This document shows positions 4,089-28,833 of a DNA stretch of 64,000 nucleotides, one piece after another. The stretch covers positions 59,389 to 123,388 of the forward strand of contig JAAYSZ010000033.1 in NCBI GenBank assembly GCA_012523895.1, given 5' to 3'. Both the position numbers and the translations under genes were made by a program. The notes under the pieces are model-generated. The model was not told the origin of the DNA, made no database searches, and worked only from the letters and a program-made list of their open reading frames with translations. The stretch is from Erysipelotrichaceae bacterium. GTDB lineage: Bacteria > Bacillota_I > Bacilli_A > Erysipelotrichales > Erysipelotrichaceae. Every line of letters begins with the position of its first letter. The stretch's first letter is position 1.

Positions 4089-4108
4089 TAATAGAAAGAG
4101 GAATTTAT

Positions 4109-8201: not shown

Positions 8202-8230
8202 TAATTATTAATTTATTAATTTAAAGTTAA

Positions 8231-8268
8231 AAAGAAGAGTAGATTTTATTACAGTCTACTCTTCTTTT
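8231..8268. terminator. bidirectional terminator between hslO (+) and the ABC operon (-)
   Basis: AAAGAAGAGTAGA (8231-8243) pairs with TCTACTCTTCTTT (8255-8267). The hairpin is flanked by A-rich sequence on one side and T-rich sequence on the other. Confidence 0.7.
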
Positions 8269-8279
8269 GTTATTTTTAT

Positions 8280-9392
8280 CTAAGGTAAAGCTTTTTCGAT
8301 AAGGTTGTCGTACATTTCATCTGTTAGAGTGCAATCGTAGAAGAGTTTATAATACTCTTTAACTTCAGTTTTTAAATCGTATTCAGTGTATTCAGGGTAA
8401 AGCAATTCGCCTAACCATAGAAGTCCTAGATATCTTTGAACAGATGGTGGTGAAGATAACCAGCCATAAGGACCGTAAGGTGTTTGGTAGTAATTTTTAT
8501 TATTTATAGCTGTAACACCACTCCATGAAGATTCAGAATCTACAGTGTCATAGATACTTTCAGGGCTAAATACTATTACTTCAGGATCCCAATTCATTAT
8601 TTGTTCAATATCAACTTCATTTCCTCCTCCAGAAGATACAACATCTTCAATTACGGCTAAGTTATTTGACATAAAGTTGATTGTTTCAGCATGGAAAGAG
8701 CCTTCAGCGATAACATTGATACCAGCATCTCCTAGACAGTAAAGTAATGATTTTCTATTTCCATCAGCATCTACTTTTTCCATCATATCTGAAATCATTT
8801 TATATGTGTCTTCACACCATACTGCAAGTTCCTCCGATTTTTCAGTTTTTCCAGTTAGCTCACCTAATTTTCTGTATGCTTCTGGAGCAGTAGCAACTGT
8901 TGCATCAATATGTACAAAAGGTATTCCAGTTTGTTCGCTAAGTGCATCCATATCTTCTACTATGGATTTTTTAGCTTCACCTACATCAATTACAACATCA
9001 GGGGCAGCAGCTAGTAATGCTTCTAAATCCATTTCACCCTTACCACCATAGAGTTGACCTAGTTTTGGTAAATTAAGATATTCTTCAGGAATATACAGTG
9101 AAGCATCTTCTGAAAAATCACTTGCAAATCCGACCATCATTTCTGGACAAAGTGGTAAAACATATAATTGAGTAAGTGGTCCAGAGACAGCTATTTTGGT
9201 TATTTCTGCAGGAATTGTTACAGTACGTCCTGTAGAATCTGTGAATTCTCTGGTTGTGTTTGAAACATCTTCGATTTGTTCTTCTTCATTGCTTGAATTA
9301 CTTACTTGTTCAGAGGGTTTTGAACAAGCTGTAAGAATAAGAGAAAAACAAAGAATAAGTATGAATGGCAGAAATCTCTTTATTTTTTTCAT
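8280..9392 (-). CDS. ABC transporter substrate-binding lipoprotein, class III (siderophore/heme/cobalamin FecB/BtuF type)
   Basis: Lipobox LTAC. The periplasmic-binding-protein-2 pattern is present (ITKIAVSGP, PDVVIDVGE, DPEVIVF). I place the start at ATG 9392 behind an AAAGGTGG RBS, because the track GTG at 9404 lies inside the RBS. Confidence 0.8.
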   Translation of the reverse strand: MKKIKRFLPFILILCFSLILTACSKPSEQVSNSSNEEEQIEDVSNTTREFTDSTGRTVTIPAEITKIAVSGPLTQLYVLPLCPEMMVGFASDFSEDASLYIPEEYLNLPKLGQLYGGKGEMDLEALLAAAPDVVIDVGEAKKSIVEDMDALSEQTGIPFVHIDATVATAPEAYRKLGELTGKTEKSEELAVWCEDTYKMISDMMEKVDADGNRKSLLYCLGDAGINVIAEGSFHAETINFMSNNLAVIEDVVSSGGGNEVDIEQIMNWDPEVIVFSPESIYDTVDSESSWSGVTAINNKNYYQTPYGPYGWLSSPPSVQRYLGLLWLGELLYPEYTEYDLKTEVKEYYKLFYDCTLTDEMYDNLIEKALP

Positions 9393-9443
9393 TATTATTG
9401 CCACCTTTCTATTAAAATTTATAGATTATAAGCAGTGATTTTT

Positions 9444-10232
9444 TTAGTTTTCATTAGAAATTATGGATGTTGGCACACAAAATCGTGCCCTATCATCAAA
9501 GAGGCTAAAAACCTCCATATCTACTTCATAAAGTGATTTCATGGTTTCTTTATTTAATATTTCAGAAGGAGTCCCGCAAGAAAGTACAGTACCATTTTTC
9601 ATAGTAAGTATTTTGTCAGAAAACATATAGCTATGTTCAGGATCATGAGTTGTTTGTATTATTGTATAACCTTCTTTAGCGAGTGCTTTTATTTGTTTTA
9701 AAACAAGTATTTGATTTCCTCGATCTAGATTTGCGGTAGGTTCATCAAGTAATAAAACAGGAGCATTTTGAACTAAAGCACGTGCTATCATCACAAGTTG
9801 TCGCTCTCCACCAGAAGTATGATGAAAACATCTATCAGAAAGTTCTAATATACCTAATTTTTCAAGTGCTTTATCAACTTTGGCTTGTTCAGTAATTCCT
9901 GGAGAAGAAAATAATTTAAGATCATTGGTTGTACCCATGAGTACTATATCGCGTACGCTGAAATTAAATACAGGTTCTGATCTTTGAGGAACATATGCAA
10001 TCTGCTTTGCGAGCTCTTTCACACTTAAGCTAGAAGCATCTAAACCATTGATAGTTATTTTTCCTGTATATTCAGTTAAAAATCCTAAAATACACTTGAA
10101 AAGTGTGCTTTTTCCTACTCCATTTGGCCCTAATATTGAAAGAACCTCTCCTTTATAAGCAGTGAAACTCATATTATTTAAAACTAATTTTTTATCATAT
10201 GCAAATGATAGTTCTTTTATTTCTAAACTCAA
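9444..10232 (-). CDS. ABC transporter ATP-binding protein (FecE/BtuD type)
   Basis: Walker A GPNGVGKST, signature SGGERQ, Walker B LLLDEPT. Confidence 0.85.
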   Translation of the reverse strand: MSLEIKELSFAYDKKLVLNNMSFTAYKGEVLSILGPNGVGKSTLFKCILGFLTEYTGKITINGLDASSLSVKELAKQIAYVPQRSEPVFNFSVRDIVLMGTTNDLKLFSSPGITEQAKVDKALEKLGILELSDRCFHHTSGGERQLVMIARALVQNAPVLLLDEPTANLDRGNQILVLKQIKALAKEGYTIIQTTHDPEHSYMFSDKILTMKNGTVLSCGTPSEILNKETMKSLYEVDMEVFSLFDDRARFCVPTSIISNEN

Positions 10233-11308
10233 TATCTTTCACCTCTTCTAGTTATTAGGAAAATAAAGAAAGGAGCTCCAACAAATGCTGTTAAAATACC
10301 GATAGGAATTCCTGAGGTTGTCACATTTCTTGATATGTTATCTACTAATAATAGGAATATGCTACCACCTAGCATTGAAACAGGCATAAGCCATTGATAG
10401 TTATTTCCAACAATTCTTCTCATCATATGCGGTATAACAAGACCAATCCAACCTATTACTCCACTTACAGAAACCGCAGATGCAGTTACAAGAGTAGCTG
10501 ATATTATGGTAGCTATACGAATCTTTTCTGCATCTACACCCATGGATCTAGCTTCTTCATCCCCCATGGTTACAACATTAAGTCTCCAGCGAAGAAGGAT
10601 TAACGGAATTATGCCAGCTAACATTGGAAATATTACAAACTTGATTTCACTCCATTTAGCGCCTGCTAAAGAACCCATTAGCCAATAAGTTATCTGTGGT
10701 AGTTTATTAGTTGGATCAGCAACCAATTTTATAAAAGATGTTCCTGCATTAAAAAGGGAACTAACAATTATTCCTGCAAGAACAAGTCCTAGTACTTTTC
10801 CTCCTTTTACATAGTTGCTAATTCTAAAAACAAGTACAACTGTAATAAGACTCATTACAAATGCAGAAAGTGTAATGTTTACGTGTTTTAAATCTAAAAA
10901 TATTGCAAGGGCTGCTCCAAAACCAGCTCCTGCAGATGCTCCTAAAACATCTGGAGAAGCCATTGGATTTTGAAAAACACCTTGGTAAGAAGCTCCTGCT
11001 GCTGAAAGACATGCACCAACTAAAATAGATAATATAACTCTTGGCAATCTTACATTCCATACTGCAGCTTCCATCTGGTCTGTCCAAAATTTTTCTGAAC
11101 CATTAAAAAGATTAAAGATTTTATTTCCAAGTATAGCTAGTAGCTCTTTTAGTGGAACAGGATATCTTCCAAGTGTAAAAGATAAAAGCGTTAAAACAAT
11201 AAGTAAAATAGCAAAAATTATTATTGCTGAAGGTCCAGATAATTGTTTGTTCGAAGATATTTCGCTATTTTGTTCAGTTTTTATTTTTTTAGTGTTTTGT
11301 TTATTCAA
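10229..11308 (-). CDS. ABC transporter permease, FecCD/BtuC family
   Basis: Polytopic protein with the typical FecCD C-terminal pattern IPIGILTAFVGAPFFIFL. TTG start behind GAGGTG. Its stop overlaps the ATPase start. Confidence 0.85.
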   Translation of the reverse strand: MNKQNTKKIKTEQNSEISSNKQLSGPSAIIIFAILLIVLTLLSFTLGRYPVPLKELLAILGNKIFNLFNGSEKFWTDQMEAAVWNVRLPRVILSILVGACLSAAGASYQGVFQNPMASPDVLGASAGAGFGAALAIFLDLKHVNITLSAFVMSLITVVLVFRISNYVKGGKVLGLVLAGIIVSSLFNAGTSFIKLVADPTNKLPQITYWLMGSLAGAKWSEIKFVIFPMLAGIIPLILLRWRLNVVTMGDEEARSMGVDAEKIRIATIISATLVTASAVSVSGVIGWIGLVIPHMMRRIVGNNYQWLMPVSMLGGSIFLLLVDNISRNVTTSGIPIGILTAFVGAPFFIFLITRRGERY

Positions 11309-11317
11309 GTTTTCACC

Positions 11318-12046
11318 TCATAATAAGAAAGTTTTTCCAAATTCATAAGGAGGACCTGAAATTCCAGAAGTTTGTCGGTTTTTCAAGCCATTTGTATCAG
11401 TAATTACTAATCCAGCAAGTCTATCAATACCTAAATTTAAAAGTTCTGGGCAAAGTGGAACAGTAGGTCCAGCAAGTATTGTATAAGCATTTTTAGATAA
11501 TTCTAAAAGACGAGGAAGTGTTTTATTAATAAGGCTACTTCCAGTAATTATTACTATGTCACATTCTGGAAGTATCCATTCACATGCGGAAGCAGGATAG
11601 TCATTTGGTTTAGGATTAAGTTCAAGTATATAATATTTGGCTACTGCTTCTTTAACTTCTTTTGGCATTTTAAGATGTCCAACTATTCCTAATTTTTTTC
11701 CTGATAAATCAAGTCCTCTTGTACAATAATTTTCATAAGGTTCTTCACAGTTATACTGTTTCATTTTTTCTTCAGTATTAAGATATGCATTTGCAGATGC
11801 AAGACCAAGAGAAGCTTCTTCAAGATTCCAACTTTTTATTGCTTGTGAAGCTTTTGAAACATCCATTCCAATAAGACTTTCTTTAAATATAGGAGGACGA
11901 GTACTTCCTAAAGTAGTCATAGCGATACCTACATTATTTTTATTAGTTTCTACTAATGACCATGAATCACCCATAATAGTATCTACAATGATTTCTCCTT
12001 TAGGAATAGAATTTATTATAGTGTCATAAATTAAATTTTTATTCAT
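11318..12046 (-). CDS. DUF4213/DUF364 protein (Rossmann-like 'putative heavy-metal chelation' family)
   Basis: The pattern GIVGHL...ILE...DYPASACEWILPECDIVIITGSSLINKTLPRLLEL...ILAGPTVPL matches my recollection of DUF364. The function is unknown. Confidence 0.6.
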   Translation of the reverse strand: MNKNLIYDTIINSIPKGEIIVDTIMGDSWSLVETNKNNVGIAMTTLGSTRPPIFKESLIGMDVSKASQAIKSWNLEEASLGLASANAYLNTEEKMKQYNCEEPYENYCTRGLDLSGKKLGIVGHLKMPKEVKEAVAKYYILELNPKPNDYPASACEWILPECDIVIITGSSLINKTLPRLLELSKNAYTILAGPTVPLCPELLNLGIDRLAGLVITDTNGLKNRQTSGISGPPYEFGKTFLL

Positions 12047-12627
12047 TGTATTTCTCCATGTTCAATATATTTTTCTTTCCACTTTTTAAGTATGTTTAAT
12101 GCATTTTTATCTTTATAATTATTAATTTCTATTATTTTTATATCAGAATCTGATAATAAATTTAAATGAAATTGTTTTGTTGCTTTTAAGAAATCTGGAT
12201 GAAGATTTGTAGTTTTCAAGAGTTTTTCAGCGGAAGGAAGTGATTTTAAAACTCCAACACATGGAACTTGTGATTTAAGAAATAAATTGAAAGCTTCCAT
12301 AAATTCAGGTATTAAAATTTCAAAACCACCAATTTCATCTATAACCGCAAAAGGTTTAGTGGTAGCATCTTTTAAAAGGTTTGAAGCAAATATAGAAAAT
12401 GCTTCATTGTTTTTAACAGTCTTTCCTTCTTTAAATGTAAGAAATCTAACATGTTTATTATCTTTGCCTAAACCAAGGCTTACTATATCAAAACCTATAA
12501 GTTTATCGTGTTCTATTACTCGCTTAGTAATAAAACCACCAGCATAGTTAAGATTATCACCTAACACATTTTTTATAAGTGTGCTTTTACCACATCCTAT
12601 GGGACCTGTAATGAAAATTTTTTTCAA
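12043..12627 (-). CDS. THEP1-like P-loop nucleoside-triphosphatase
   Basis: Walker A GPIGCGKST, GGFITKRV...GFDIV, and Walker B-like VIDEIGGFE. Confidence 0.6.
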   Translation of the reverse strand: MKKIFITGPIGCGKSTLIKNVLGDNLNYAGGFITKRVIEHDKLIGFDIVSLGLGKDNKHVRFLTFKEGKTVKNNEAFSIFASNLLKDATTKPFAVIDEIGGFEILIPEFMEAFNLFLKSQVPCVGVLKSLPSAEKLLKTTNLHPDFLKATKQFHLNLLSDSDIKIIEINNYKDKNALNILKKWKEKYIEHGEIQ

Positions 12628-13634
12628 GATTTACTCCTAGTAGCTCTTAGTTCTATCATTTGAGCACATATGGAAATTGCTATTTCTTCAGGTGTTTCAG
12701 ATTTTATATCAAGTCCTATTGGTGTTGTTATTCTTTCAAAGTCTTTTTCATTAAAGCCTTGTTTTCTAAGCTCTGCTTGGACTCCAGCTATTTTATATTT
12801 ACTTCCAATTACTCCAATATAACATGCAGGTGTTTTTAAAACTTGTGCTTGAACTATTGTGTCGTGAGAGTGTCCACGTGTCATAATACAAACATAATCT
12901 TCAGGCCCTATTGTTATCTTTTCTAAGATATTATTAAAATCTACAAGAACAACATCTTCAGCATCGGGAAAGAGTTTTTTATCAGCAAATTCTGGACGAT
13001 CATCTGCGGCTATACATCTAAATCCAACATATGAAAGTATGGGAACTAGAGCTTGGCCTACATGACCACATCCAAAAATATAGACTTTACCAGAAAATCC
13101 TATTTGTTCAGCATACATATCCATATTTGTTTCTTTTACTCTTGTTGGTTGACGTGAAAGTTTATCAATAACAATTTCTGGTATATCAAATCCAAAACTT
13201 CCATCTGTTTTTGACCAAATAGCAAGTTTGCTTTCTTCTTTGATATCACTGATAAGCCAGATATCTTGGCCTAAATCAAATCTTCTTTCTGCTTCATTTA
13301 AAAGAGATAGAGTATTTTGATCTTTAGCGGGAATATAGTGGAAGAAAACTTCAACAGCACCACCACAAATCATACCTAGATTTTCTACATCATCTTTTGT
13401 AAGAGCAAAATTATGTCCGCTAGAACGTTTCTTTTTTAAAATTTCTGTAGCTATCTGTTCTGATTTAAATTCAACAGCACCACCACCAATAGTTCCTGTA
13501 AGCCTACCTTCTTTTCCAATAAGCATTCTTGCTCCTGTTCCTCGAGGAGTAGAACCTGATGAAGCAATTACTGTTACAAGAACTAAATCTTCTTTTAATA
13601 AGTAATCACTCATAAGTTTAAACATGTTTCGCAT
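12624..13634 (-). CDS. xdhC: XdhC/CoxI-family Mo-cofactor insertion/sulfuration accessory protein
   Basis: N-terminal XdhC_CoxI pattern (GSTPRGTGARMLI...GTIGGG) and C-terminal Rossmann motif IFGCGHVGQAL. I place the start at ATG 13634 behind GGAGG. Confidence 0.8.
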   Translation of the reverse strand: MRNMFKLMSDYLLKEDLVLVTVIASSGSTPRGTGARMLIGKEGRLTGTIGGGAVEFKSEQIATEILKKKRSSGHNFALTKDDVENLGMICGGAVEVFFHYIPAKDQNTLSLLNEAERRFDLGQDIWLISDIKEESKLAIWSKTDGSFGFDIPEIVIDKLSRQPTRVKETNMDMYAEQIGFSGKVYIFGCGHVGQALVPILSYVGFRCIAADDRPEFADKKLFPDAEDVVLVDFNNILEKITIGPEDYVCIMTRGHSHDTIVQAQVLKTPACYIGVIGSKYKIAGVQAELRKQGFNEKDFERITTPIGLDIKSETPEEIAISICAQMIELRATRSKS

Positions 13635-13668
13635 TTTGGCCTCCAATCTTTTTTGTTTAAAAATATTC

Positions 13669-14757
13669 TTATAATTTAATTATTTCTTGATTACATATTT
13701 TATTTATAGTTTCAATATTTTTTTTATTTATTTCAAACTTTTTTTCTATTATTTCCTTTAATTCATCAGTTTGAAATTTTTTAGCGCTTCTTTTAAATCT
13801 TTCATTTAGACCCACAACTTTATCTTCAAATACAACACGATCAGCAATAATTAATACTGCAAGTTCATCTATATTTTCAAAAATATAATTATCACAGTGT
13901 TTACCTATTATTTCTGCTTCTTTGTGATAACCTAATGCATCAATCCACTCTTTTCCAACTTTACAATGGTTTTTATTTGTTCTAGCTATATCGTGAAGTA
14001 ATGCCGTGTTTGTTATTAAATCAATATTTAAGTTGAATCCTTTTTCAATTAAACATAAACCTATTCTCTTAGCTTCTTTTGCTACTGCCATACTATGTTT
14101 TATTACATGTTCTGGTGTATTAGCCACATTAAGTAGTTGTAAACATAGATCTTCTGTAAGTAAAGGATTATATTGTTTTCCTATATATTCATCTGTAATA
14201 ATATTGTTTTTTAAATTAAGTTTTGATATTGAACAATAAGGTAAAAGTTTTCTGCCAGGTGGTAGCTCTTTTTTTAAAGTTTTAGAAAGAAAGGCATGCA
14301 TTATCGCAGAATGAGAAACTATGATAATATTTCCTTTTGTTTCTTTTAATATTTTTTTTAAAGCAAAATTAAATCTTATAAAAGCTTCTTCTTGATTTTC
14401 TGCACCTGGAGGTTGTAAAAAAGGATCTTTTCCTCTAGCTTCATAAAGTTTTGGCCATCGAACTTTAATTTCATCAAAAGAAAAACCATCCCATACACCA
14501 AAATTCATTTCTTCTAATCCATCAATTATTATTGGATTATTAAAGAATTCTGCTGTTTGGATGGCGCGTTTTAATCTACTACAAAATACATTTGAGATAT
14601 CAATGTCATTAAAATATTTTTCAGCTAAAAATGCTTGCATTTTTCCTATAGTAGAAAGATGCAAATCGGTATGTCCAATACAAACCTTTTTGCCATCAGG
14701 AAATTCTGGTAAACCATGGCGTATAAGATAGATTTCTCGCATTTTATTGGTCTCCAT
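13669..14757 (-). CDS. fusion protein: histidine phosphatase (CobC/PGM-like) N-domain plus HD phosphohydrolase C-domain
   Basis: LIRHG (RHG motif) and IIIVSHS in the N-terminal half; H...LHDIAR (HD motif) in the C-terminal half. The alternative start ATG 14742 (MREIYLIRHG) is equally plausible. Confidence 0.7.
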   Translation of the reverse strand: METNKMREIYLIRHGLPEFPDGKKVCIGHTDLHLSTIGKMQAFLAEKYFNDIDISNVFCSRLKRAIQTAEFFNNPIIIDGLEEMNFGVWDGFSFDEIKVRWPKLYEARGKDPFLQPPGAENQEEAFIRFNFALKKILKETKGNIIIVSHSAIMHAFLSKTLKKELPPGRKLLPYCSISKLNLKNNIITDEYIGKQYNPLLTEDLCLQLLNVANTPEHVIKHSMAVAKEAKRIGLCLIEKGFNLNIDLITNTALLHDIARTNKNHCKVGKEWIDALGYHKEAEIIGKHCDNYIFENIDELAVLIIADRVVFEDKVVGLNERFKRSAKKFQTDELKEIIEKKFEINKKNIETINKICNQEIIKL

Positions 14758-15683
14758 TATTTAAGTATTTCAGATAGATATTTTTCATAAAGCTCTATAG
14801 AAGCTTCTTTCATTGCTTTTTCATATTTACGATATTGTTCTAATAGCAACTTACCTTCTGGAGTTAGACTACTGCTACCTCCTCTAGAGCCACCTTGTTT
14901 ACGTAAAACTAAGTCAAAGCCTGCTTGAGATTCTATTGAATTAAGGGTTTTCCAACCTTTACTATAAGAAACTTGTATTCTTTGACAGGCTGTTTTAACT
15001 GATTTTGTTTCATCTATAAGCTCGAGTAAAAGTGCAATATTTGAGTCAAAAAACCTACTTTCTTTTTCAAGAGAAAGTTTAATAACAGGGCGCATCAATT
15101 GATTATTATGATATTCCAAAAGTTTATCAAATTCTTCAGGTGTGTCTGCATCGTATAATATGCCTTCATCTTCTATATAAACAAAACCTTCAGAAATATC
15201 TAGTTGTTTAAGAGCTTTTGCAAGACCACCTTCTCCGTTGTAATCTAATATAAGATTAATTGCTTTTGAAGAAAGAAGTATAGGATGACCCTTAATACCA
15301 CAACAGATTGGATACACTACATCACTTCGTTTTTTTAAAAGTTTTTTTACAGTATCAGCTCTAAAAAGAGGGATGTCAACAGGTGTAAATAAAACACGAT
15401 TACATTTATTTTTAAGGTAATTTAAACCTATACATGCTGAATCAAACATTTCAGTATTTTTATAATCTTCATTTCGAAGAAAAATCACACCACTTTTTGC
15501 AAGGTGCTTTTCAAGAACATCAGCATTATAACCAGTTACAACTACTATTTGAAAGACTCCTGCTTGTTGCAGTGTTGCAATAACACGCTGAGCCACGGAA
15601 ATAGAACCTATGCTTAACATAGGTTTGAAATCTCCCATTCTAGATGACATACCAGCAGCTGTTATTACTGCTCCTACTTTCAT
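14757..15683 (-). CDS. mocA: MocA-like molybdenum cofactor cytidylyltransferase fused to a ModE-N-type winged-helix DNA-binding domain
   Basis: N-terminal GAVITAAGMSSRMG NTP-transferase motif. The C-terminal SVKTACQRIQVSYSKGWKTLNSIESQAGFDLVLRKQGGSRGGSSSLTPEG equals the ModE/LysR-type HTH. As I recall it, this architecture is the one called the DVU_1551-family NTP transferase. Confidence 0.75.
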   Translation of the reverse strand: MKVGAVITAAGMSSRMGDFKPMLSIGSISVAQRVIATLQQAGVFQIVVVTGYNADVLEKHLAKSGVIFLRNEDYKNTEMFDSACIGLNYLKNKCNRVLFTPVDIPLFRADTVKKLLKKRSDVVYPICCGIKGHPILLSSKAINLILDYNGEGGLAKALKQLDISEGFVYIEDEGILYDADTPEEFDKLLEYHNNQLMRPVIKLSLEKESRFFDSNIALLLELIDETKSVKTACQRIQVSYSKGWKTLNSIESQAGFDLVLRKQGGSRGGSSSLTPEGKLLLEQYRKYEKAMKEASIELYEKYLSEILK

Positions 15684-15764
15684 GTATTCACCTTTCTTTC
15701 ATATCAAGACAAATTTAGATTATTATTTGATGCTTAGTATTATAAAATTATCAATAAACATATA

Positions 15765-15899
15765 AAAATAGCCGTTATTATTATTTATATTATAACACTC
15801 GCCTTAGCGAGTTGTAAACGTATACAACTTGTAAAAACAAACAACTTGAAAAGGTATTATACGCTTGTTATATTATAGATAGAGATAAACGGCTATTTT
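15765..15899. repeat. 12-bp perfect inverted repeat bracketing the promoter region
   Basis: AAAATAGCCGTT (15765-15776) and AACGGCTATTTT (15888-15899) are separated by 111 bp. The interval also holds GTTGTA-N6-TACAAC (15811-15828) and the direct repeat ACAACTTG at 15824-15831 and 15841-15848. Confidence 0.7.
15789..15818 (-). promoter_or_regulatory. sigma-A-type promoter for the mocA operon with an operator-like palindrome in the spacer
   Basis: The minus strand reads TTTACA, an 18-nt spacer, then TATAAT. The spacer contains ACTCGC-N4-GCGAGT (15797-15812). Confidence 0.55.
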
Positions 15900-15936
15900 A
15901 AAGCTTGTATATATAATTAAAAAATATAGAACGATT

Positions 15937-16200
15937 TTAATCTTCGTGATTATCACAGCGATGGACATCAGGTCCACCACCTGTCATATCTCTAAGACCA
16001 AGGAGTCCTTGTTCAGTATAGAATATAAGCGAAGTAGGTTTTCCTTGAATGTCTTCAGCAGAAAGTCGAAGAAAATTAGATGTTTCCAGATAACTTACAG
16101 GAAGTTTTCTAACATAAGCTTTTCCTGTCTCTTTATCGACTACTTTTACTTCTATTTCATCTGCACTGATTTTATTAGGCATATCGGCATTGCTATTCAT
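15937..16200 (-). CDS. hypothetical 87-aa protein with a His/Cys/Asp-rich C-terminal tail
   Basis: Strong AAGGAGA RBS 7 nt before the ATG. The protein ends ...MTGGGPDVHRCDNHED. I recognise no family. Confidence 0.55.
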   Translation of the reverse strand: MNSNADMPNKISADEIEVKVVDKETGKAYVRKLPVSYLETSNFLRLSAEDIQGKPTSLIFYTEQGLLGLRDMTGGGPDVHRCDNHED

Positions 16201-16358
16201 AAACTGTCTCCTTTCATATAATTATATGGTAACAGTTTATAACAAAAAATACACATAAGTATAATTTATTTTATACAAATATGGGCAATGTCTTAATGTA
16301 ATATTCATAATTGAAAATTAGGAGAATTTAAGAATCAAAAAGAAAAGGAGGTTCAAGA

Positions 16359-19112
16359 ATGAGTAAAGGATTAACCAAAAAGATTTTAAACATCAACGGA
16401 GCAAAGAGAAGTATTCTTGTAAAAGGTGATGAAAAACTCTCAACTATACTCCGTGAGCGTCTTTTGCTCACAGGATGTAAAATCGGTTGTGGGGAAGGTC
16501 ACTGTGGAGCATGTAATGTAATTTTGGATGGCAAGGTTACAAGATCCTGTGTTGTACCTATTTCCAGAGTTCCAGATTTTGCGGAAATTACTACAATAGA
16601 AGGAATAGGTACGCTTGATAACTTACATCCACTTCAAGTTGCTTGGATGGCTTATGGATGTGCACAGTGTGGATTCTGCAGCCCTGGCTTTATTGTTAGT
16701 GCTAAGGTTTTATTAGATCAAAATCCTAGTCCTACAAGAGAAGAAGTTAGAGATTGGTTCCACAAATGTCGTAACCTTTGCAGATGTACTGGTTACAAGC
16801 CATTAATCGATGCTACTATGGCTGCAGCTGAGGTATTAAGAGGTGAAAAAACTAAAGAAGATCTTATGTTTACACCAACAGATAATCGTATACTTGGTAC
16901 CGACTATGTACGTCCTTCAGCAGCAATGAAGGTAACTGGAACTTGGGATTTTGGTGCTGATGATGCACTTTATATGCCACCAGATACTTTACGTTTAGCT
17001 CTTGTTCAAGCAGAAGTTTCACATGCTAATATTAAAGGTATCGATACTTCTGAAGCAGAGAAAATGCCTGGAGTTTACCAAATTATTACTGCAAAAGATG
17101 TTCCTGGTAAAAACCGTATCAACGGACTTGTTATGTTACCTTTAAATAACAAGTGTGATGGCTGGGATCGTCCAATACTTTGTGATGAAAAAGTATTCCA
17201 ATTTGGAGATGCAATTGCAATAGTAGCTGCAGATACTGAAGAAAATGCTAGAGCAGCCGCAAAAGCTGTAAAAGTTGATTTGGAAGTTCTTCCTGCATAT
17301 ATGAGTGTTCCTGAAGCACTAGCTCCTGATGCAATAGAAATTCATCCAGGAATTCCAAATGAATACTATGAAACAAATTGTATTAAAGGTCCAGATTTTG
17401 ATTGGGACAGTGTTCCTGAAGAAAATCAAGTTGAAATTGAAAGTTATTGTTCACGCCAACCTCACCTATATCTAGAACCAGATAATGGTTATGCATATAT
17501 TGATGAAGATGGTATGTTGACTATTCATTCAAAGAGTATAGGTATCCATTTACATATGCCTATGATTGCTGATGGTATTGGTGTAAGTATGGATAAACTA
17601 AGATTAGTTCAAAACAATGCTGGAGGAACATTTGGTTATAAGTTCTCTCCAACTAATGAGGCTTTATTAGGAGTTGCAGCATTTGTAACTAAGAGACCAG
17701 TTAGTTTGAACTTTAATATGTATCAATCAATCACATATACTGGAAAGAGAAGTCCAGGATTCATGAATATTAAGTTAGCAGCTGATGATGATGGAAAATT
17801 GCTTGCACTTTGGGGTCGCAATTACATTGACCATGGTCCATATTCAGAATTTGGTGACTTATTAACTCATAGACTTACTCAGTTTGTAGGTGCAGGTCTT
17901 GATATTCCAAGTATAAGAAATAAGAACTCAACAGTATTTACTAACCATGCATGGGGTTCAGCATTTAGAGCTTATGGTTCACCTCAAGCATTTATGGGAA
18001 GTGATATTGCTATTGATTGTCTAGCAGCTAAGATGGGAATAGATCCATTTGAAATGAGGGCTATGAACTGTTATAAGGAAAGCGAAGATTCTCGCACACC
18101 GACAGGTTGTAGACCAGATGTTTATTGCTTAGAAGGTCTTTATGATTTAGCTCGTCCTAAGTATCAAGAAGGTAAAAAGCGTGTAGAAGAAAAGAATGCT
18201 GCTTCTGATGGAAAAATCAAATACGGTATTGGAGTATCTTTAGGTATTTATGGTTGTGGTTTAGATAACTCAGATGTATCAGAGTGCTATGCAGACTTAC
18301 TAGAAGACAATACTGTACTTGTTAGAAACTCTTGGGAAGATCATGGACAAGGTGCTGATATTGCAACATTAACTGCAGCACATGAAGCACTAAGAGAAGC
18401 AGGATTTAAGCCAGAAGATATTAAATTATTCCAATGCGATACTAAGCATACGCCTAACTCAGGTCCAGCAGGAGGAAGCCGTTCTACTGTTATGACAGGT
18501 AATGCTACTCGTATTGCGTGTGAAAATTTAGTTAAAGCAATGAGAAAAGAAGATGGAACATACAGAACTTATGCGGAAATGAAAGAAGAAGGAATAGATA
18601 CTCATGCAAAAGGTGTATACACTTACACTGCTTCAGTTTCACTTAACCAAGAAACTGGACAAGGAGAACCATTCCCAGCATATATGTATAGTATCTTCCT
18701 ACCTGAAGTTGCAGTTGATACTGAAACAGGTAAAGTTAAGGTTGAAAAGTTCACTTGTGTTGCTGATGTAGGAACTATATTAAATAAGACAACAGTTGAT
18801 GGTCAATTCTATGGTGGTCTAGTTCAAGGTATAGGTCTTGCATTAACAGAGGATTTTGAAGATCTTAATAAACATACATCACTTATAAGATGTGGAATTC
18901 CTTATCCATTAGATGCACCAGATGATATGGAAATTATCTATCAAGAAACATATCGTCCAAACAGCTTATTTGGAGCTGCAGGTTGTGGGGAAGCACCACT
19001 TGATGCACCTCACCCAGCTATACTAAACGCTATATATAATGCTACTGGCGCACGTATAACTAGAGTTCCTGCAAAACCAGAGGTTGTTCTAGAAGCATTA
19101 AAAAATATATAA
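16359..19112 (+). CDS. mop: molybdopterin (MCD)-dependent aldehyde oxidoreductase, Desulfovibrio gigas MOP type (2x[2Fe-2S] plus Moco domains, no FAD domain)
   Basis: CGEGHCGAC and CAQCGFCSPG cluster motifs. Long collinear identity with my recollection of D. gigas MOP (NLHPLQ.AW, GFCSPGFIVSAK.LLD, VSHANIKGIDTSEA, GWDRPILCDEKVFQ.GD, DHGPYSEFGDLLT, WEDHGQGADI, PNSGP.GGSR). 917 aa. Confidence 0.9.
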   Translation: MSKGLTKKILNINGAKRSILVKGDEKLSTILRERLLLTGCKIGCGEGHCGACNVILDGKVTRSCVVPISRVPDFAEITTIEGIGTLDNLHPLQVAWMAYGCAQCGFCSPGFIVSAKVLLDQNPSPTREEVRDWFHKCRNLCRCTGYKPLIDATMAAAEVLRGEKTKEDLMFTPTDNRILGTDYVRPSAAMKVTGTWDFGADDALYMPPDTLRLALVQAEVSHANIKGIDTSEAEKMPGVYQIITAKDVPGKNRINGLVMLPLNNKCDGWDRPILCDEKVFQFGDAIAIVAADTEENARAAAKAVKVDLEVLPAYMSVPEALAPDAIEIHPGIPNEYYETNCIKGPDFDWDSVPEENQVEIESYCSRQPHLYLEPDNGYAYIDEDGMLTIHSKSIGIHLHMPMIADGIGVSMDKLRLVQNNAGGTFGYKFSPTNEALLGVAAFVTKRPVSLNFNMYQSITYTGKRSPGFMNIKLAADDDGKLLALWGRNYIDHGPYSEFGDLLTHRLTQFVGAGLDIPSIRNKNSTVFTNHAWGSAFRAYGSPQAFMGSDIAIDCLAAKMGIDPFEMRAMNCYKESEDSRTPTGCRPDVYCLEGLYDLARPKYQEGKKRVEEKNAASDGKIKYGIGVSLGIYGCGLDNSDVSECYADLLEDNTVLVRNSWEDHGQGADIATLTAAHEALREAGFKPEDIKLFQCDTKHTPNSGPAGGSRSTVMTGNATRIACENLVKAMRKEDGTYRTYAEMKEEGIDTHAKGVYTYTASVSLNQETGQGEPFPAYMYSIFLPEVAVDTETGKVKVEKFTCVADVGTILNKTTVDGQFYGGLVQGIGLALTEDFEDLNKHTSLIRCGIPYPLDAPDDMEIIYQETYRPNSLFGAAGCGEAPLDAPHPAILNAIYNATGARITRVPAKPEVVLEALKNI

Positions 19113-19150
19113 TATAGTCAGAGATATACCTGGCTAAAAGTATAATTTTA

Positions 19151-19184
19151 AAAGAGGCAGGGTATACTGCCTCTTTGTTTATTT
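19151..19184 (+). terminator. rho-independent terminator after mop
   Basis: AAAGAGGCAG pairs with CTGCCTCTTT around a GGTATA loop, followed by GTTTATTT. Confidence 0.7.
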
Positions 19185-19228
19185 AATCCGTTTTCTAACA
19201 ATGTATTGCAAAAGAATGGAGATAATTT

Positions 19229-21529: not shown

Positions 21530-21747
21530 CAGACAATAAAGTATACTACACTGTAGAAACTGGGGATAATCTTATTTGTCAAAAATGTGGTATTCCTTTG
21601 GTGAAGACTGAAGCAGTTTTTGAGTATTTAAATAATTCATTTCCTGTTGAACTTCCTGCTTGTCCTAAATGTGGTTTTGTATATGTTCCAGAGGATTTAG
21701 CATTAGGAAAAGTTCTTTCTGTAGAGAAGGTATTAGAGGATAAGTAA
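21526..21747 (+). CDS. 73-aa CxxC...CxxC zinc-ribbon/rubredoxin-like protein (recalled as the DVU_1557-family redox protein)
   Basis: CQKCG and CPKCG pairs. An ATGA overlap with the upstream gene indicates translational coupling. Confidence 0.6.
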   Translation: MTDNKVYYTVETGDNLICQKCGIPLVKTEAVFEYLNNSFPVELPACPKCGFVYVPEDLALGKVLSVEKVLEDK

Positions 21748-22316
21748 TGGATGCATTAAAGTCTTCATGTTTAAATAAAAAAAATGAAAGACATCCTGGA
21801 GGATATGATACAACAATGTATTTAATTAAACTTTCAAGTATAGAACCATGTAAGATTTTAGATATGGGTGCTGGAAGTGGAACTACTGTAAAGCTTTTAA
21901 AAAAACTGGGATTTGATGCTTTTGGGATTGATTTAAATCCTGGAGAAGGTGTAGAAAAAGGAGATATGTTAAATACGAATTTTTCTAATGAAAGTTTTGA
22001 TGCAATTATTTCAGAATGTTCATTTTTTATTACAAAAGATTCTTGTAAAGTTCTTAAAGAAGCTAATAGGATTCTTAAAAAGGGTGGAAAACTTCTTCTA
22101 TCAGATATATTTTATGGTGATGAAAAAGAACTTTGTAAATTCTTAATGGAAGGTGGATTTAAACCTTTACTGTATAAGGATATTACTGACAAGTGGAAAC
22201 ATTATTATATAGAAAGAATATGGGATGGAACTGCAGATGAATTTTGTAATTTAAAACATGATAGTTATAGTATTAAAAAATTTAGATATTTTTTAAGTGT
22301 CAGTGAAAGGATGTGA
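21747..22316 (+). CDS. class I SAM-dependent methyltransferase (recalled as the DVU_1556 family)
   Basis: Motif I ILDMGAGSGTT and motif post-I FGIDL. TAATG overlap with the upstream gene. Confidence 0.7.
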   Translation: MDALKSSCLNKKNERHPGGYDTTMYLIKLSSIEPCKILDMGAGSGTTVKLLKKLGFDAFGIDLNPGEGVEKGDMLNTNFSNESFDAIISECSFFITKDSCKVLKEANRILKKGGKLLLSDIFYGDEKELCKFLMEGGFKPLLYKDITDKWKHYYIERIWDGTADEFCNLKHDSYSIKKFRYFLSVSERM

Positions 22317-22321
22317 ATTTT

Positions 22322-22747
22322 ATGAGTGATATTTTCGAAAGGATATTAGAATATTCTCAAAAAGGTTATTCTTGTTCACAGGTTATGTTATTGATTGCTC
22401 TTGAAAGTGAGGGTAAGGAAAATCAGGACTTGGTTCGTGCGGTAGCTGGTTTAAGAAGAGGACTTGGTGGAACAGGTGGAGTTTGTGGAGTTCTTAGTGG
22501 TGGAATGTGTTTTTTAAGCTATTTTGGTGGAAAAGGTAGTGATGACGAAGTAGAAAATGAAAATTTAAAAATCATGTATAAAGAACTTTATAATTGGTTT
22601 GTTGAATATACTGCTGAATATGGTGGTATTAATTGTAAACAAATAATAGCTGATGATTCACGTAACTATGTACAACGTTGTCCAATACTAATTAGAGATA
22701 CATTAGAACAATGTATCTCTATCTTACAAAAATACGATTTAATATAA
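22322..22747 (+). CDS. C_GCAxxG_C_C family protein (recalled as the DVU_1555 family)
   Basis: GYSCSQ...GGVCGVLSGG...NCKQII...RCP pattern. I prefer ATG 22322, 10 nt after GAAAGGA, over the track GTG at 22313. Confidence 0.7.
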   Translation: MSDIFERILEYSQKGYSCSQVMLLIALESEGKENQDLVRAVAGLRRGLGGTGGVCGVLSGGMCFLSYFGGKGSDDEVENENLKIMYKELYNWFVEYTAEYGGINCKQIIADDSRNYVQRCPILIRDTLEQCISILQKYDLI

Positions 22748-22772
22748 ATAATTTATTTTAGGAGGTTTTTAA

Positions 22773-27111: not shown

Positions 27112-28833
<1,722 letters not shown>

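What the first reader, a model, noticed from the sequence alone, without database searches (positions are those of the whole stretch)
8280..15683. Moco-handling operon that carries a cofactor/siderophore-class ABC importer instead of ModABC/TupABC: possible molybdenum-cofactor, pterin or metal-chelate salvage
Eight minus-strand genes with overlapping or near-abutting boundaries form one apparent operon. In order they are: a MocA cytidylyltransferase fused to a ModE-type HTH, a His-phosphatase/HD fusion, XdhC, a THEP1-like NTPase, DUF364 (the 'putative heavy-metal chelation' Rossmann protein), a FecCD/BtuC permease, an ATPase, and a class-III helical-backbone substrate-binding lipoprotein. Molybdate and tungstate normally enter through class-II ModA/TupA/WtpA systems. 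Class-III binding proteins take large organic ligands such as siderophores, heme and cobalamin. No moaA, moaC, moaD, moaE, moeA or mogA gene is present in this 64 kb. One reading is uptake of a preformed pterin, Moco or metal chelate. The ligand would be handed to DUF364 and the NTPase, trimmed by the phosphatase/HD protein, converted to the MCD form by MocA, and inserted into MOP by XdhC. To my knowledge, no bacterial Moco or molybdopterin importer has been described.
Basis: inference. Interest (0 to 1): 0.7.

Follow-up and report, generated by a model that had tools for sequence, protein, structure and literature searches.

The report
Molybdenum importer inside cofactor-maturation operon
A gut-type Clostridium operon that matures the molybdenum cofactor of an aldehyde oxidoreductase carries its own ABC importer, which databases label as an iron transporter but which most likely brings in molybdenum or tungsten; the exact chemical form it carries is still unknown.

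Summary
A ninth conserved small gene (ORF87) and a conserved promoter/operator also belong, and the MOP aldehyde oxidoreductase operon is transcribed divergently.

The importer is not a chance neighbour. Of 51 species loci with enough flank, at least 48 carry a MocA/MobA-type, XdhC or Mo-hydroxylase gene beside it.

H. influenzae MolABC is a type-II importer with a class-III binding protein for molybdate/tungstate. The permease here is closest to MolB (2e-64). MolA is the nearest ligand-characterised relative of the binding protein.

Distant relatives, including PDB 4PAG, sit beside a true ModE, a TunR-like regulator, FdhD, TupABC-like genes, FmdE or DUF364.

Best reading: a MolABC-like Mo/W importer fills the slot that ModABC/ModE occupy in classical MCD clusters. 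The chemical form imported is unresolved. An invariant Cys/His/Asp/Tyr site absent from MolA, and TonB-dependent receptors in diderm relatives, keep a Mo/W-chelate ligand plausible.

Moco salvage has no specific support, but it cannot be excluded without whole genomes. I rate this a new variant of a known kind, of moderate interest.

The parts
8230..8268 (.). Bidirectional intrinsic-terminator-like hairpin (16-bp stem flanked by A and T runs) between the convergent Hsp33 gene and the SBP gene. It marks the operon end.
8280..9404 (-). Class-III (Peripla_BP_2) substrate-binding lipoprotein of the MolA/4PAG clade. The start is probably the ATG at 9392 (370 aa, as called in L001). Family-invariant site: Q79 Y119 H165 C197 C223 S236 H238 N262 D265 Y313 W315 R324.
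9444..10232 (-). ABC ATPase (Walker A GPNGVGKST, signature SGGERQ). It does not discriminate between substrate classes.
10229..11308 (-). Type-II (FecCD/BtuC-fold) permease. Its best solved homologue is MolB/HI1471.
11318..12046 (-). DUF4213+DUF364 protein. Optional accessory, present in 38/63 loci.
   Evidence: PMC2954201; PMC12930334; bioRxiv 10.1101/2024.03.05.583561
12043..12627 (-). THEP1-like P-loop NTPase (PF03266). Optional accessory, present in 41/61 loci.
12624..13646 (-). XdhC-family Moco chaperone/insertase of the aldehyde-oxidoreductase-associated branch.
13669..14757 (-). His_Phos_1 (CobC-like) phosphatase fused to an HD domain. The HD domain equals the C-terminal half of the DVU_1551-family MocA-HD proteins. 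In about 14 loci only the phosphatase half is present.
14757..15683 (-). MocA-type cytidylyltransferase domain (N-half of NF045665; ITAAGMSSRMG motif) fused to a ModE-type winged HTH without Mop/TOBE domains. Candidate autoregulator.
15789..15844 (-). Promoter-like site (TTTACA-18-TGTTATAAT, 11/12) overlapped by two tandem TTGT-N8-ACAA palindromes. The ~40-nt block is nearly invariant in six species while the flanking intergenic DNA has diverged. Candidate operator of the HTH fusion.
15937..16200 (-). ORF87: conserved small protein of unknown function with the C-terminal motif LTGGGPDxxxCxxH.
16359..19112 (+). MOP-type molybdopterin (MCD) aldehyde oxidoreductase (NF045668, 1499 bits vs cutoff 1100). 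This is the client enzyme, transcribed divergently.
19229..25300 (+). Rest of the MOP neighbourhood: dicluster/CCG oxidoreductase (NF045663), small DUF7479 ORF, DVU_1556-type methyltransferase, DVU_1555 C-GCAxxG-C-C protein, TrsS radical SAM, DVU_1553 AMP-dependent ligase.

Best explanation
The locus is a self-contained unit that supplies metal to, and matures, the molybdopterin-cytosine-dinucleotide (MCD) cofactor of the divergently transcribed MOP aldehyde oxidoreductase.

Proposed mechanism, step by step:
1. The lipoprotein SBP, the MolB-like type-II permease and the ATPase form a MolABC-like importer. It brings molybdenum (possibly tungsten) into the cell, most likely as the oxyanion or a simple complex of it. 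It fills the role that ModABC plays in classical MCD clusters.
2. DUF364 and the THEP1-like NTPase are optional cytoplasmic metal-handling helpers.
3. Mo is inserted into molybdopterin by MoeA/MogA encoded elsewhere in the genome.
4. The MocA domain adds CMP to make MCD. The His-phosphatase and HD domains are recurrent MocA partners of unknown reaction.
5. XdhC holds the finished cofactor and inserts it into apo-MOP.
6. The ModE-type HTH fused to MocA binds the tandem TTGT-N8-ACAA palindromes over the operon promoter, so that transporter and maturation genes respond to cofactor or nucleotide status rather than to free molybdate.

Shown here: gene content, homologies, conserved linkage, conserved operator, conserved SBP site.
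Inferred: the ligand, the direction of regulation, the roles of DUF364, NTPase, phosphatase/HD and ORF87, and the presence of MoeA/MogA elsewhere.
For: Homology.
- The permease's best solved match is MolB (2nq2, 2e-64, 221 bits), ahead of HmuU (178), FhuB (170) and BtuC (125).
- The SBP's only ligand-characterised close relative is MolA: phmmer 2e-13 over the full length, Foldseek rank 5 with TM 0.65/0.73.
- MolBC-A is an established molybdate/tungstate importer (PMC4031551, PMC4245157).

Linkage.
- SBP orthologues of 47-88% identity in 80 species sit with the permease (66/67 loci with enough flank) and the ATPase (69/72).
- At least 48/51 loci with enough flank carry a MocA/MobA-type, XdhC or Mo-hydroxylase gene.
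- The minimal conserved core is MocA-HTH plus the transporter beside an XDH-family enzyme (L052-56, L060).

Wider clade, also Mo/W-linked.
- 4PAG lies downstream of a true ModE with Mop domains, near FdhD and a Sec-type formate dehydrogenase-like enzyme.
- Desulfuromonas: an HTH + molybdate-type PBP-domain regulator.
- Syntrophobacter: DUF364 + FmdE.
- Dehalococcoidales: FmdE.
- L040: TupA/TupB-like genes, a W-maturase-like radical SAM, MoaE-like and MogA.

Other support.
- DUF364 is independently tied to molybdate/tungstate transporters (STRING contexts in PMC2954201). It also sits in a modABC operon cofit with nifH in M. maripaludis (bioRxiv 10.1101/2024.03.05.583561).
- In Enterocloster the MCD cluster is moaAC-mogA-moeA-modABCE-mocA-xdhC, so a Mo transporter plus ModE normally occupies this slot (bioRxiv 10.1101/2024.02.08.579493).
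- The operator footprint is conserved.
Against: - The SBP is only ~22% identical to MolA. The positions invariant in this family (GPLTQ, YCLGD, SFH; C197, C223, H238) are not shared with MolA in the alignment.
- I could not obtain MolA's binding residues: PMC3258573 is not held.
- A conserved Cys/His/Asp/Tyr site resembles direct metal coordination more than a hydrogen-bonded oxyanion pocket.
- Diderm relatives pair the system with TonB-dependent receptors and radical-SAM enzymes carrying an SBP-like domain. That pattern is more typical of chelate uptake.
- Presence of MoeA/MogA/MoaA-E in the window's genome is assumed, not shown.
- No binding or transport data exist for any member of this subfamily.
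Confidence: 0.6

Rival explanations
1. The importer takes up molybdenum or tungsten bound to an organic chelator (a 'molybdophore'/'tungstophore', or an opportunistically used catecholate or opine-type complex). Protein side chains (Cys/His/Tyr/Asp) complete the metal's coordination. DUF364, and in relatives the radical-SAM-SBP fusion and methyltransferase, make or dismantle the chelator.
For: - After the MolA/4PAG tier, the structural neighbours are chelate binders: YiuA, H. pylori CeuE with Ni-His, CeuE/FeuA/VctP catecholate binders.
- The Cys/His/Asp/Tyr signature is invariant across 78 orthologues.
- All three diderm relatives examined have a TonB-dependent receptor with ExbBD-TonB.
- Cytoplasmic AmmeMemoRadiSam-type radical-SAM enzymes are fused to a domain homologous to this SBP's C-lobe.
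- The only characterised DUF364 enzyme cyclises a SAM derivative to an azetidine carboxylate, the chemistry of nicotianamine-class metallophores (PMC12930334).
Against: - No chelator-biosynthesis set or exporter lies in the window or recurs in the 80 loci.
- DUF364 is dispensable (38/63 loci) and also occurs with class-II ModABC, which takes the bare oxyanion.
- TonB-dependent receptors also import free metal ions.
- The closest characterised homologue binds the bare oxyanion.
Confidence: 0.2
2. One reading: the importer salvages preformed Moco, molybdopterin, cPMP or another pterin from the environment. The phosphatase/HD protein trims it, MocA converts it to MCD, and XdhC inserts it.
For: - No moa/moe/mog genes lie in the window, in +-10 kb beyond it, or in 1.3 Mb of flanks from 86 loci, L040 excepted.
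- MocA plus the transporter is the conserved core.
- A survey scored 305 bacterial genomes as having Moco enzymes without a complete Moco pathway, most also without a known Mo transporter (PMC6147048).
- Type-II importers do carry cofactors such as B12 and heme.
Against: - The premise that class-III SBPs exclude small anions is false (MolA).
- The permease is closest to MolB, not BtuC or HmuU.
- No BtuF or heme-binder similarity.
- The 4PAG orthologue is paired with a molybdate-sensing ModE.
- L040 has MogA, MoaE-like and TupABC-like genes adjacent.
- Moco-pathway genes commonly lie elsewhere in genomes.
- To my knowledge there is no precedent for bacterial Moco import.
- The survey's supplementary rows for Clostridia were not readable, so overlap with carrier species is unknown.
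Confidence: 0.07
3. The transporter is an ordinary iron-siderophore, heme or cobalamin importer, as databases annotate it, and merely sits next to the Moco genes.
For: - Source annotations read 'iron complex transport system substrate-binding protein'.
- The best NCBIfam ATPase and permease hits are corrinoid, heme and Fe-dicitrate models, all far below their cutoffs.
- MOP contains Fe-S clusters.
Against: - The linkage to MocA/XdhC/Mo-hydroxylase genes holds in >=48/51 loci across several orders.
- Junctions are translationally coupled.
- Mo/W regulators, not Fur-type contexts, surround distant relatives.
- No NCBIfam siderophore, heme or B12 SBP model comes near its cutoff.
Confidence: 0.05

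Closest known systems
MolABC (MolBC-A; HI1470-HI1472) of Haemophilus influenzae: low-affinity molybdate/tungstate type-II ABC importer
   Same: Type-II FecCD-fold permease (best PDB hit, 2e-64). Class-III SBP of the same subclade, sharing the C-terminal W..P..LG..W..LYPE..FY..FY motif. Genomic association with Mo genes.
   Different: The SBP is only ~22% identical and its invariant Cys/His-containing site is not shared with MolA. Here the system is a lipoprotein-anchored Gram-positive version, embedded in a MocA/XdhC operon and accompanied by DUF364 and a THEP1-like NTPase. No ModD/ModA neighbours. Ligand untested.
Classical MCD-cofactor clusters with ModABC/ModE (e.g. Enterocloster moaAC-mogA-moeA-modABCE-mocA-xdhC; E. 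coli mocA, paoD/xdhC)
   Same: Co-location and co-regulation of a Mo importer, a ModE-type DNA-binding domain, MocA and XdhC next to an XO-family enzyme.
   Different: A type-II/class-III importer replaces type-I/class-II ModABC. The ModE HTH lacks Mop domains and is fused to MocA. The moa/moe/mog genes are not in the cluster.
Desulfovibrio DVU1551-DVU1559 aldehyde oxidoreductase (MOP) neighbourhood, as modelled by NCBIfam NF045663-NF045669 and TrsS NF045646
   Same: MOP, the dicluster oxidoreductase, DVU_1556 MTase, DVU_1555, TrsS, DVU_1553 ligase, the XdhC_rel_AOR branch and both halves of the DVU_1551 MocA-HD protein are all present.
   Different: The DVU_1551 architecture is split and re-fused here (MocA+HTH; His_Phos+HD). 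The ABC importer, DUF364 and NTPase are not covered by any of these NCBIfam models (SBP and DUF364 match none). I did not inspect the Desulfovibrio locus itself.
BtuCD-F, HmuUV-T and FhuBC-D type-II importers for cobalamin, heme and siderophores
   Same: Overall transporter architecture and SBP fold class.
   Different: Lower similarity than to MolB. BtuF and heme binders are not among the top 50 structural matches. The genomic context is Mo/W rather than iron or B12.
PDB 4PAG (Sulfurospirillum deleyianum), 4OVK (Veillonella parvula), 4HN9 (Eubacterium eligens), 2ETV (Thermotoga TM0189): structural-genomics SBPs without an assigned ligand
   Same: Closest solved relatives (E 7e-40 to 7e-11; TM up to 0.88). 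4PAG shares the SFH(A/S)E, W315 and R324 positions and has a Mo/W genomic context.
   Different: They lack the two invariant cysteines. The 4PAG system is TonB-dependent and paired with a radical-SAM-SBP fusion.

Membership tests
MolABC-type Mo/W importer | Type-II (BtuC/FecCD-fold) permease homologous to MolB | tested here: met
   PF01032 at 5.5e-91. Best PDB hit is 2nq2_A MolB, 2e-64, above HmuU, FhuB and BtuC.
MolABC-type Mo/W importer | Class-III SBP homologous to MolA | tested here: met
   phmmer 2e-13 over residues 52-358. Foldseek E 4.6e-18, TM 0.65/0.73. MolA is the nearest relative with a known ligand.
MolABC-type Mo/W importer | Conservation of MolA's oxyanion-binding residues | tested here: inconclusive
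   The family-invariant residues here do not match MolA at the aligned positions. The alignment is at 22% identity, and MolA's actual ligand residues could not be retrieved.
MolABC-type Mo/W importer | Binds and transports molybdate/tungstate | not testable with these tools
   Needs ITC/DSF and uptake assays.
MolABC-type Mo/W importer | Genomic association with Mo/W metabolism | tested here: met
   >=48/51 loci. ModE, TunR-like, FdhD, FmdE and Tup contexts in relatives.
MocA (TIGR03310, Moco cytidylyltransferase) | Score above the equivalog cutoff | tested here: not met
   103.5 bits vs cutoff 186.45. The better match is the N-half of NF045665 (DVU_1551 family) at 196.6 bits, below that model's whole-protein cutoff of 315 because only half the model is present. 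The sequence shows a TAAG-type N-terminal motif; its link to CTP specificity is from memory.
ModE | N-terminal ModE HTH plus C-terminal Mop/TOBE molybdate-binding domains | tested here: not met
   Only the HTH is present (TIGR00637 at 52.5 bits vs cutoff 98.5). No Mop/TOBE hit. Contrast the true ModE at L092.
XdhC family (aldehyde-oxidoreductase branch, NF045664) | Both XdhC domains, and the equivalog score | tested here: inconclusive
   PF02625 and PF13478 are both above their cutoffs. NF045664 scores 317.7 vs cutoff 350, and TIGR02964 scores 161.2 vs 161.6. It is a clear family member but marginally below the equivalog thresholds.
MOP-type aldehyde oxidoreductase (NF045668) | Equivalog score and the 2x[2Fe-2S] + MoCoBD architecture without an FAD domain | tested here: met
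   1499 bits vs cutoff 1100. Fer2, Fer2_2, Ald_Xan_dh_C and MoCoBD_1/2 are present.
DUF364 (PF04016 + PF13938) | Both domains above the gathering score; homology to 3L5O | tested here: met
   114.8 and 56.7 bits. 3l5o at 5.1e-42.
BtuCD-F cobalamin importer | BtuC/BtuF equivalog-level similarity | tested here: not met
   BtuC models score 234.8 vs cutoff 461 and 192.6 vs 334. No BtuF model or structure appears among the SBP hits.
Iron-siderophore/heme SBPs (FepB, FhuD, IsdE, SstD) | Equivalog-level similarity of the SBP | tested here: not met
   The best NCBIfam scores are 21-35 bits against cutoffs of 205-450.

The most novel reading that the evidence does not exclude
The importer does not carry the bare oxyanion. 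It carries a larger preformed molybdenum/tungsten species: a dedicated Mo/W metallophore complex or, less likely, Moco or molybdopterin itself. The invariant Cys/His/Asp/Tyr site of the SBP would recognise it, and DUF364 (and, in diderm relatives, the radical-SAM-SBP fusion) would process it in the cytoplasm. That would define a previously unrecognised, widespread route of Mo/W acquisition. It would be TonB-dependent in Proteobacteria and lipoprotein-based in gut Clostridia. It could also explain genomes that have molybdoenzymes but no known Mo transporter or no complete Moco pathway.
Probability: 0.25. Interest if true: 0.8.

Novelty: new variant of a known kind. Interest (0 to 1): 0.52.

Why it matters
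Xanthine-oxidase-family molybdoenzymes of gut Clostridia carry out purine, aldehyde, drug and polyphenol transformations, and their activity depends on Mo supply.

Comparative surveys recognise only ModABC, TupABC and WtpABC, and they leave some Mo-using organisms, including 24 Clostridia, without a known transporter (PMC6147048).

This locus points to a widespread importer family: at least 80 species in one scan and 579 50%-identity clusters at E<=1e-30. Databases label it 'iron complex transport', yet it is wired to Mo-cofactor maturation.

Re-annotating it would:
- change metal-budget predictions for gut and digester microbes;
- give a candidate for the missing transporters;
- give a function to the MolA-like structural-genomics proteins (4PAG, 4OVK, 4HN9, TM0189);
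- provide a concrete setting in which to test what DUF364, FmdE-like proteins and the MocA-HTH fusion do.

If the ligand proves to be a chelate or the cofactor itself, it would be a new mode of Mo acquisition.

Tried and rejected
- Haft & Gwadz 'SAO' selenoprotein ABC system (bioRxiv 2022.07.06.499078). I read it because NCBIfam names (TrsS, diclust_near_Sec) pointed to Haft's work. It describes a different locus. The 2026 selenoproteome review only lists TrsS in a table.
- MolA structure paper (PMC3258573). Not held. A search for 3PSA/3PSH found nothing useful, so MolA's ligand residues could not be compared.
- ATPase versus PDB. Non-discriminating: eukaryotic ABC exporters rank on top, and FhuC, MolC and HmuV score about the same.
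- Rfam. No Moco riboswitch or other element near the operon in the window or in 7 diverse loci.
- Peng et al. 2018 supplement. The stored table is cut before the Firmicutes rows, so I could not see whether carrier taxa are among the 'orphan molybdoprotein' genomes.
- Whole-genome check for moa/moe/mog/modABC in the window's organism. Not possible, because only +-10 kb around known proteins can be fetched. The two edge walks added 20 kb with no Mo genes.
- ORF87. No Pfam or NCBIfam family, only 14 unnamed close homologues by word search, a low-confidence model (pLDDT 63.5) and no fold match (best E 0.07).
- The TTGTA-N6-TACAA motif. Not enriched window-wide (10 matches vs 7.9 expected) and absent upstream of MOP. 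Its support is the phylogenetic footprint, not the count.
- Literature searches for a described TonB/FecCD-type Mo/W system or for this operon found nothing.
- Considered and rejected: cobalamin import. It was prompted by the CobC-like phosphatase and the best NCBIfam hits being corrinoid ATPase and BtuC. All scores are far below cutoffs, there is no BtuF similarity, and there are no cob/cbi neighbours.

Full report
**1. What is in the sequence**

The window is low-GC DNA (about 22-36% GC). Between 8280 and 15683 lie eight minus-strand ORFs. Their junctions are 4-, 4-, 4- and 1-nt overlaps and 39-, 9- and 22-nt gaps.

| Coordinates | Call |
|---|---|
| 8280-9404 | Peripla_BP_2 lipoprotein |
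| 9444-10232 | ABC ATPase |
| 10229-11308 | FecCD permease |
| 11318-12046 | DUF4213+DUF364 |
| 12043-12627 | NTPase_1/THEP1 P-loop protein |
| 12624-13646 | XdhC |
| 13669-14757 | His_Phos_1+HD fusion |
| 14757-15683 | MobA-like nucleotidyltransferase fused to a ModE-type HTH without Mop/TOBE domains |

A 16-bp-stem hairpin at 8230-8268 closes the operon.

- An 87-codon ORF at 15937-16200 (-) is a real gene. Gene callers predict it in six assemblies. It has homologues in 27 related loci, and its alignment shows an invariant Cys and a near-invariant His in the motif LTGGGPDxxxCxxH.
- The 253-nt spacer between ORF87 and the MocA-HTH gene holds the best promoter-like site of the region (TTTACA-18-TGTTATAAT). 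Two tandem TTGT-N8-ACAA palindromes overlap it. This ~40-nt block is nearly invariant in six species whose surrounding intergenic DNA has diverged. Similar TTGTAT-N4-WTACAA palindromes lie upstream of the MocA-HTH gene in more distant loci.
- NCBIfam already recognises the divergent plus-strand operon as a curated neighbourhood. It comprises MOP (NF045668, 1499 bits), a dicluster/CCG oxidoreductase (NF045663), a DVU_1556-type methyltransferase, a DVU_1555 C-GCAxxG-C-C protein, the TrsS radical SAM and a DVU_1553 AMP ligase. The DVU_1551 'MocA-HD' protein of that neighbourhood is split here. Its N-half is the MocA domain of 14757-15683 and its C-half is the HD domain of 13669-14757.

**2. Absence of Moco-biosynthesis and classical Mo-transport genes**

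Pfam scans covered 53 of the 55 window ORFs of at least 120 aa. They show housekeeping and sugar-metabolism genes only.

I also ran tblastn with genuine E. coli K-12 MoaA-E, MoeA/B, MogA and ModA/B/C/E proteins (loci L087-L089) against the window plus 86 related loci, 1.3 Mb in all. There were no MoaC, MoaD, MoaE, MoeA, MoeB or ModA hits. The MoaA hits are the TrsS gene. Walking 10 kb beyond each window edge added nothing.

It covers only about 84 kb of a genome whose best assembly has a 2.5 Mb contig, so it is weak evidence.

**3. Is the transporter really part of the Mo system?**

An SBP alignment (A1) scanned against one genome per species returned 80 loci. They are mostly Oscillospiraceae and other Clostridia MAGs. 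The set also includes Acetivibrio ethanolgignens, Solobacterium, Christensenellaceae, Limiplasma and Dehalococcoidales.

I searched these loci by tblastn with the 14 window proteins and corrected for contig truncation. Each denominator counts the loci with enough upstream flank to hold that gene:

| Gene | Loci with it |
|---|---|
| Permease | 66/67 |
| ATPase | 69/72 |
| MocA-HTH | 39/51 |
| XdhC | 41/57 |
| NTPase | 41/61 |
| DUF364 | 38/63 |
| His_Phos(-HD) | 26/55 |
| MOP | 22/37 |

- Of 51 loci with at least 7 kb upstream, 47 carry MocA, XdhC or a Mo-hydroxylase. One of the four exceptions (L085) turned out to encode a diverged MobA-like transferase directly upstream of the permease.
- The minimal recurring core is MocA-HTH + permease + ATPase + SBP next to an XDH-family enzyme with its own FAD subunit (L052-56, L060).
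- The linkage is therefore conserved and not an accident of this genome. DUF364, the NTPase and the phosphatase/HD protein are optional modules.

**4. What kind of transporter is it?**

That is contradicted by H. influenzae MolBC-A. It is a type-II importer whose class-III SBP MolA binds molybdate and tungstate and contributes to Mo uptake in vivo (PMC4031551, PMC4245157).

- Permease: against all PDB sequences the best match is MolB itself (2nq2, 2e-64, 221 bits). It is ahead of HmuU (178 bits), FhuB (170) and BtuC (125).
- SBP by sequence: the best matches are four structural-genomics proteins without assigned ligands (4PAG 7e-40, 4OVK, 4HN9, 2ETV) and MolA (2e-13 over the full length). All share a distinctive C-terminal motif.
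- SBP by structure: an AlphaFold model (pLDDT 78) gives the same ranking by Foldseek: 4PAG, 4OVK, 2ETV, MolA, 4HN9. Small metal-chelate binders follow (YiuA, H. pylori CeuE/Ni-His, catecholate binders). BtuF and heme binders are not in the top 50.
- ATPase: uninformative.
- NCBIfam: no siderophore, heme or B12 SBP model comes near its cutoff.

**5. Context of the wider SBP clade**

I reconstructed the 4PAG sequence from the alignment. It matched the S. deleyianum protein at 100% identity.

- **S. deleyianum (4PAG).** The gene lies directly downstream of a bona fide ModE (ModE repressor domain above cutoff plus Mop domains). It is next to ExbB-ExbD-TonB, a FecCD permease, an ATPase, a TonB-dependent receptor and FdhD. 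It is also beside a Tat- and selenocysteine-containing formate-dehydrogenase-type operon.
- **Desulfuromonas relative.** It has the same TonB-dependent set. Its regulator joins an HTH to the molybdate-type PBP domain found in MoeA fusions. From memory, this is the architecture of the tungstate-responsive TunR family.
- **Syntrophobacter relative.** It has DUF364, FmdE with a Zn ribbon, a methyltransferase and a TonB-dependent receptor.
- **Within the 80 loci.** Dehalococcoidales carry FmdE with a Zn ribbon. One Faecousia species (L040) has, immediately upstream of XdhC-DUF364-permease-ATPase-SBP, TupA/TupB-like genes, a radical SAM related to the tungsten-cofactor maturase, a MoaE-like gene and a MogA/MoaB fragment.
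- **DUF364 in the literature.** STRING contexts associate it with molybdate, tungstate and vanadium transporters (PMC2954201). In Methanococcus maripaludis it sits in a modABC operon whose fitness pattern tracks nifH (bioRxiv 10.1101/2024.03.05.583561).
- **Enterocloster.** The urolithin-induced MCD cluster is moaAC-mogA-moeA-modABCE-mocA-xdhC. There a Mo transporter plus ModE occupies exactly the slot taken here by the FecCD-type importer and the ModE-type HTH.

Taken together, the MolA/4PAG clade of class-III SBPs and its type-II permeases form a Mo/W-linked transporter family.

**6. What form of the metal?**

This is not settled.

For the bare oxyanion:
- the MolA precedent;
- pairing with a molybdate-sensing ModE;
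- DUF364's co-occurrence with class-II oxyanion transporters.

Against a simple equation with MolA:
- The 78 orthologues share an almost invariant constellation: Q79, Y119, H165, C197, C223, S236, H238, N262, D265, Y313, W315, R324. It includes two cysteines and two histidines in an extracytoplasmic protein.
- MolA does not share these residues at the aligned positions.
- All three diderm relatives examined use a TonB-dependent receptor.
- Two of them encode a cytoplasmic AmmeMemoRadiSam-type radical-SAM enzyme fused to a domain homologous to the C-lobe of this very SBP family (E 3e-9).
- The only DUF364 enzyme characterised so far cyclises a methylated SAM to an azetidine carboxylate (PMC12930334). 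That is the type of chemistry that builds nicotianamine-class metallophores.

These points keep a Mo/W-chelate ligand alive. On the other side, no chelator-biosynthesis or export genes recur in the loci, and DUF364 is dispensable.

**7. The Moco-salvage idea**

Nothing specific supports it beyond the absence of pathway genes nearby and one literature observation. That survey scored 305 bacterial genomes as having Moco enzymes without a complete pathway, most also lacking known Mo transporters (PMC6147048). Its authors caution that many of those genomes are incomplete. I could not read which taxa these are.

Against it:
- ModE pairing in the 4PAG system;
- the MogA, MoaE-like and Tup-like genes adjacent in L040;
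- closer similarity to MolB than to cofactor permeases.

It cannot be excluded without whole genomes and binding assays. I give it about 7%.

**8. Proposed mechanism**

Shown:
- composition and order of the operon;
- its conservation;
- the homologies;
- the conserved operator and the conserved SBP site.

Inferred:
1. The lipoprotein SBP captures a Mo (or W) species outside the cell.
2. The MolB-like permease and the ATPase import it.
3. DUF364 and the THEP1-like NTPase, where present, handle the metal in the cytoplasm.
4. MoeA/MogA encoded elsewhere make Mo-MPT.
5. The MocA domain adds CMP. The HD and His-phosphatase domains are recurrent partners of unknown reaction. HD is fused to MocA in the DVU_1551 family, and about 14 loci keep only the phosphatase.
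6. XdhC inserts MCD into MOP.
7. The HTH fused to MocA binds the tandem palindromes. This couples expression of the importer and maturation genes to cofactor or nucleotide status, because the usual Mop molybdate sensor is missing.

ORF87, with its Cys/His tail, is unassigned. Modelling and fold search gave nothing.

**9. Comparison, novelty and score**

The system works like MolABC plus a MocA/XdhC maturation cluster. It is a member of the MolB/FecCD permease and Peripla_BP_2 families. Membership in a 'MolA' specificity class is unproven.

I found no description of this operon, or of the TonB-dependent relatives, in the searchable literature. Sources annotate the SBP as a generic or iron-complex binding protein.

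The family is sizeable. It has 579 representatives of 50%-identity clusters at E<=1e-30 and 2406 at E<=1e-10.

I rate it a new variant of a known kind, interest about 0.5. There is a 25% chance that the ligand is a larger preformed Mo/W species, which would be considerably more interesting.

Noticed in passing
window 15937-16200 (-): Conserved 87-aa protein (ORF87) with the C-terminal motif LTGGGPDxxxCxxH. It always lies between the MOP and MocA-HTH genes. No family assignment and no fold match.
   Followed up: yes
window 15789-15844: Two tandem TTGT-N8-ACAA palindromes over the -35 of the operon promoter, conserved in six species. Related palindromes lie upstream of MocA-HTH genes in L023, L071 and L052-56. 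Likely the binding site of the MocA-fused ModE-type HTH.
   Followed up: partly
L092 10041-11822; L093 14915-16735: ~600-aa AmmeMemoRadiSam-type radical-SAM enzymes fused to a C-terminal domain homologous to the C-lobe of this SBP family (E 3e-9). They are encoded next to the SBP in Sulfurospirillum and Desulfuromonas. A cytoplasmic enzyme carrying a transporter-SBP half-domain is unusual.
   Followed up: partly
L092, L093, L094: In diderm relatives the MolA/4PAG-type SBP and FecCD transporter come with a TonB-dependent receptor and ExbB-ExbD-TonB, under ModE- or TunR-like regulators. This looks like a TonB-dependent Mo/W uptake system, and I could not find it described.
   Followed up: partly
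L023, L026, L030, L032, L034, L037, L051, L058, L059, L061, L062, L066, L068, L071 (e.g. L062 5426-6427): A TylF/macrocin-O-methyltransferase-like protein (~333 aa) recurs between the MocA-HTH and MOP genes in 14 Oscillospiraceae-type loci. It is absent from the window.
   Followed up: no
L069, L072, L073, L083 (e.g. L072 9165-9929): In Christensenellaceae, Limiplasma and L073 (labelled an uncultured Ruminococcaceae bacterium), a SAM-methyltransferase gene is inserted between the ATPase and SBP genes. In L069, L072 and L083 XdhC follows the SBP. The Syntrophobacter locus L094 also has a methyltransferase just upstream of the SBP.
   Followed up: no
window 29061-32942 (+): Three consecutive ORFs (519, 379 and 365 aa) with no Pfam match, in the lowest-GC stretch of the window (0.216-0.256).
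   Followed up: no
window 27114-27322 (+): T-box leader (117.5 bits) upstream of a class-II aminoacyl-tRNA synthetase of the Asp/Lys/Asn type (27340-28833).
   Followed up: no
L004 (GCA_900198705.1 FZPS01000186.1) 14718-20465: This assembly of the same species diverges from the window and the other five assemblies just past Hsp33. The GH2 gene is truncated and is followed by an ABC transporter and GcpE instead of HydF/HydE. This is either a strain rearrangement or a scaffolding join.
   Followed up: no
window about 21526-21747 (+); L001 300-521: A 73-aa DUF7479 ORF sits between the dicluster oxidoreductase and the DVU_1556-type methyltransferase of the MOP operon. It falls below the ORF-length cut-offs I used for the window.
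   Followed up: no
window 3057-5266 (+): [FeFe]-hydrogenase maturation genes (a radical SAM HydE/HydG-type gene and HydF) lie just beyond Hsp33 and a GH2 glycosidase. This indicates a hydrogen-producing anaerobe.
   Followed up: no
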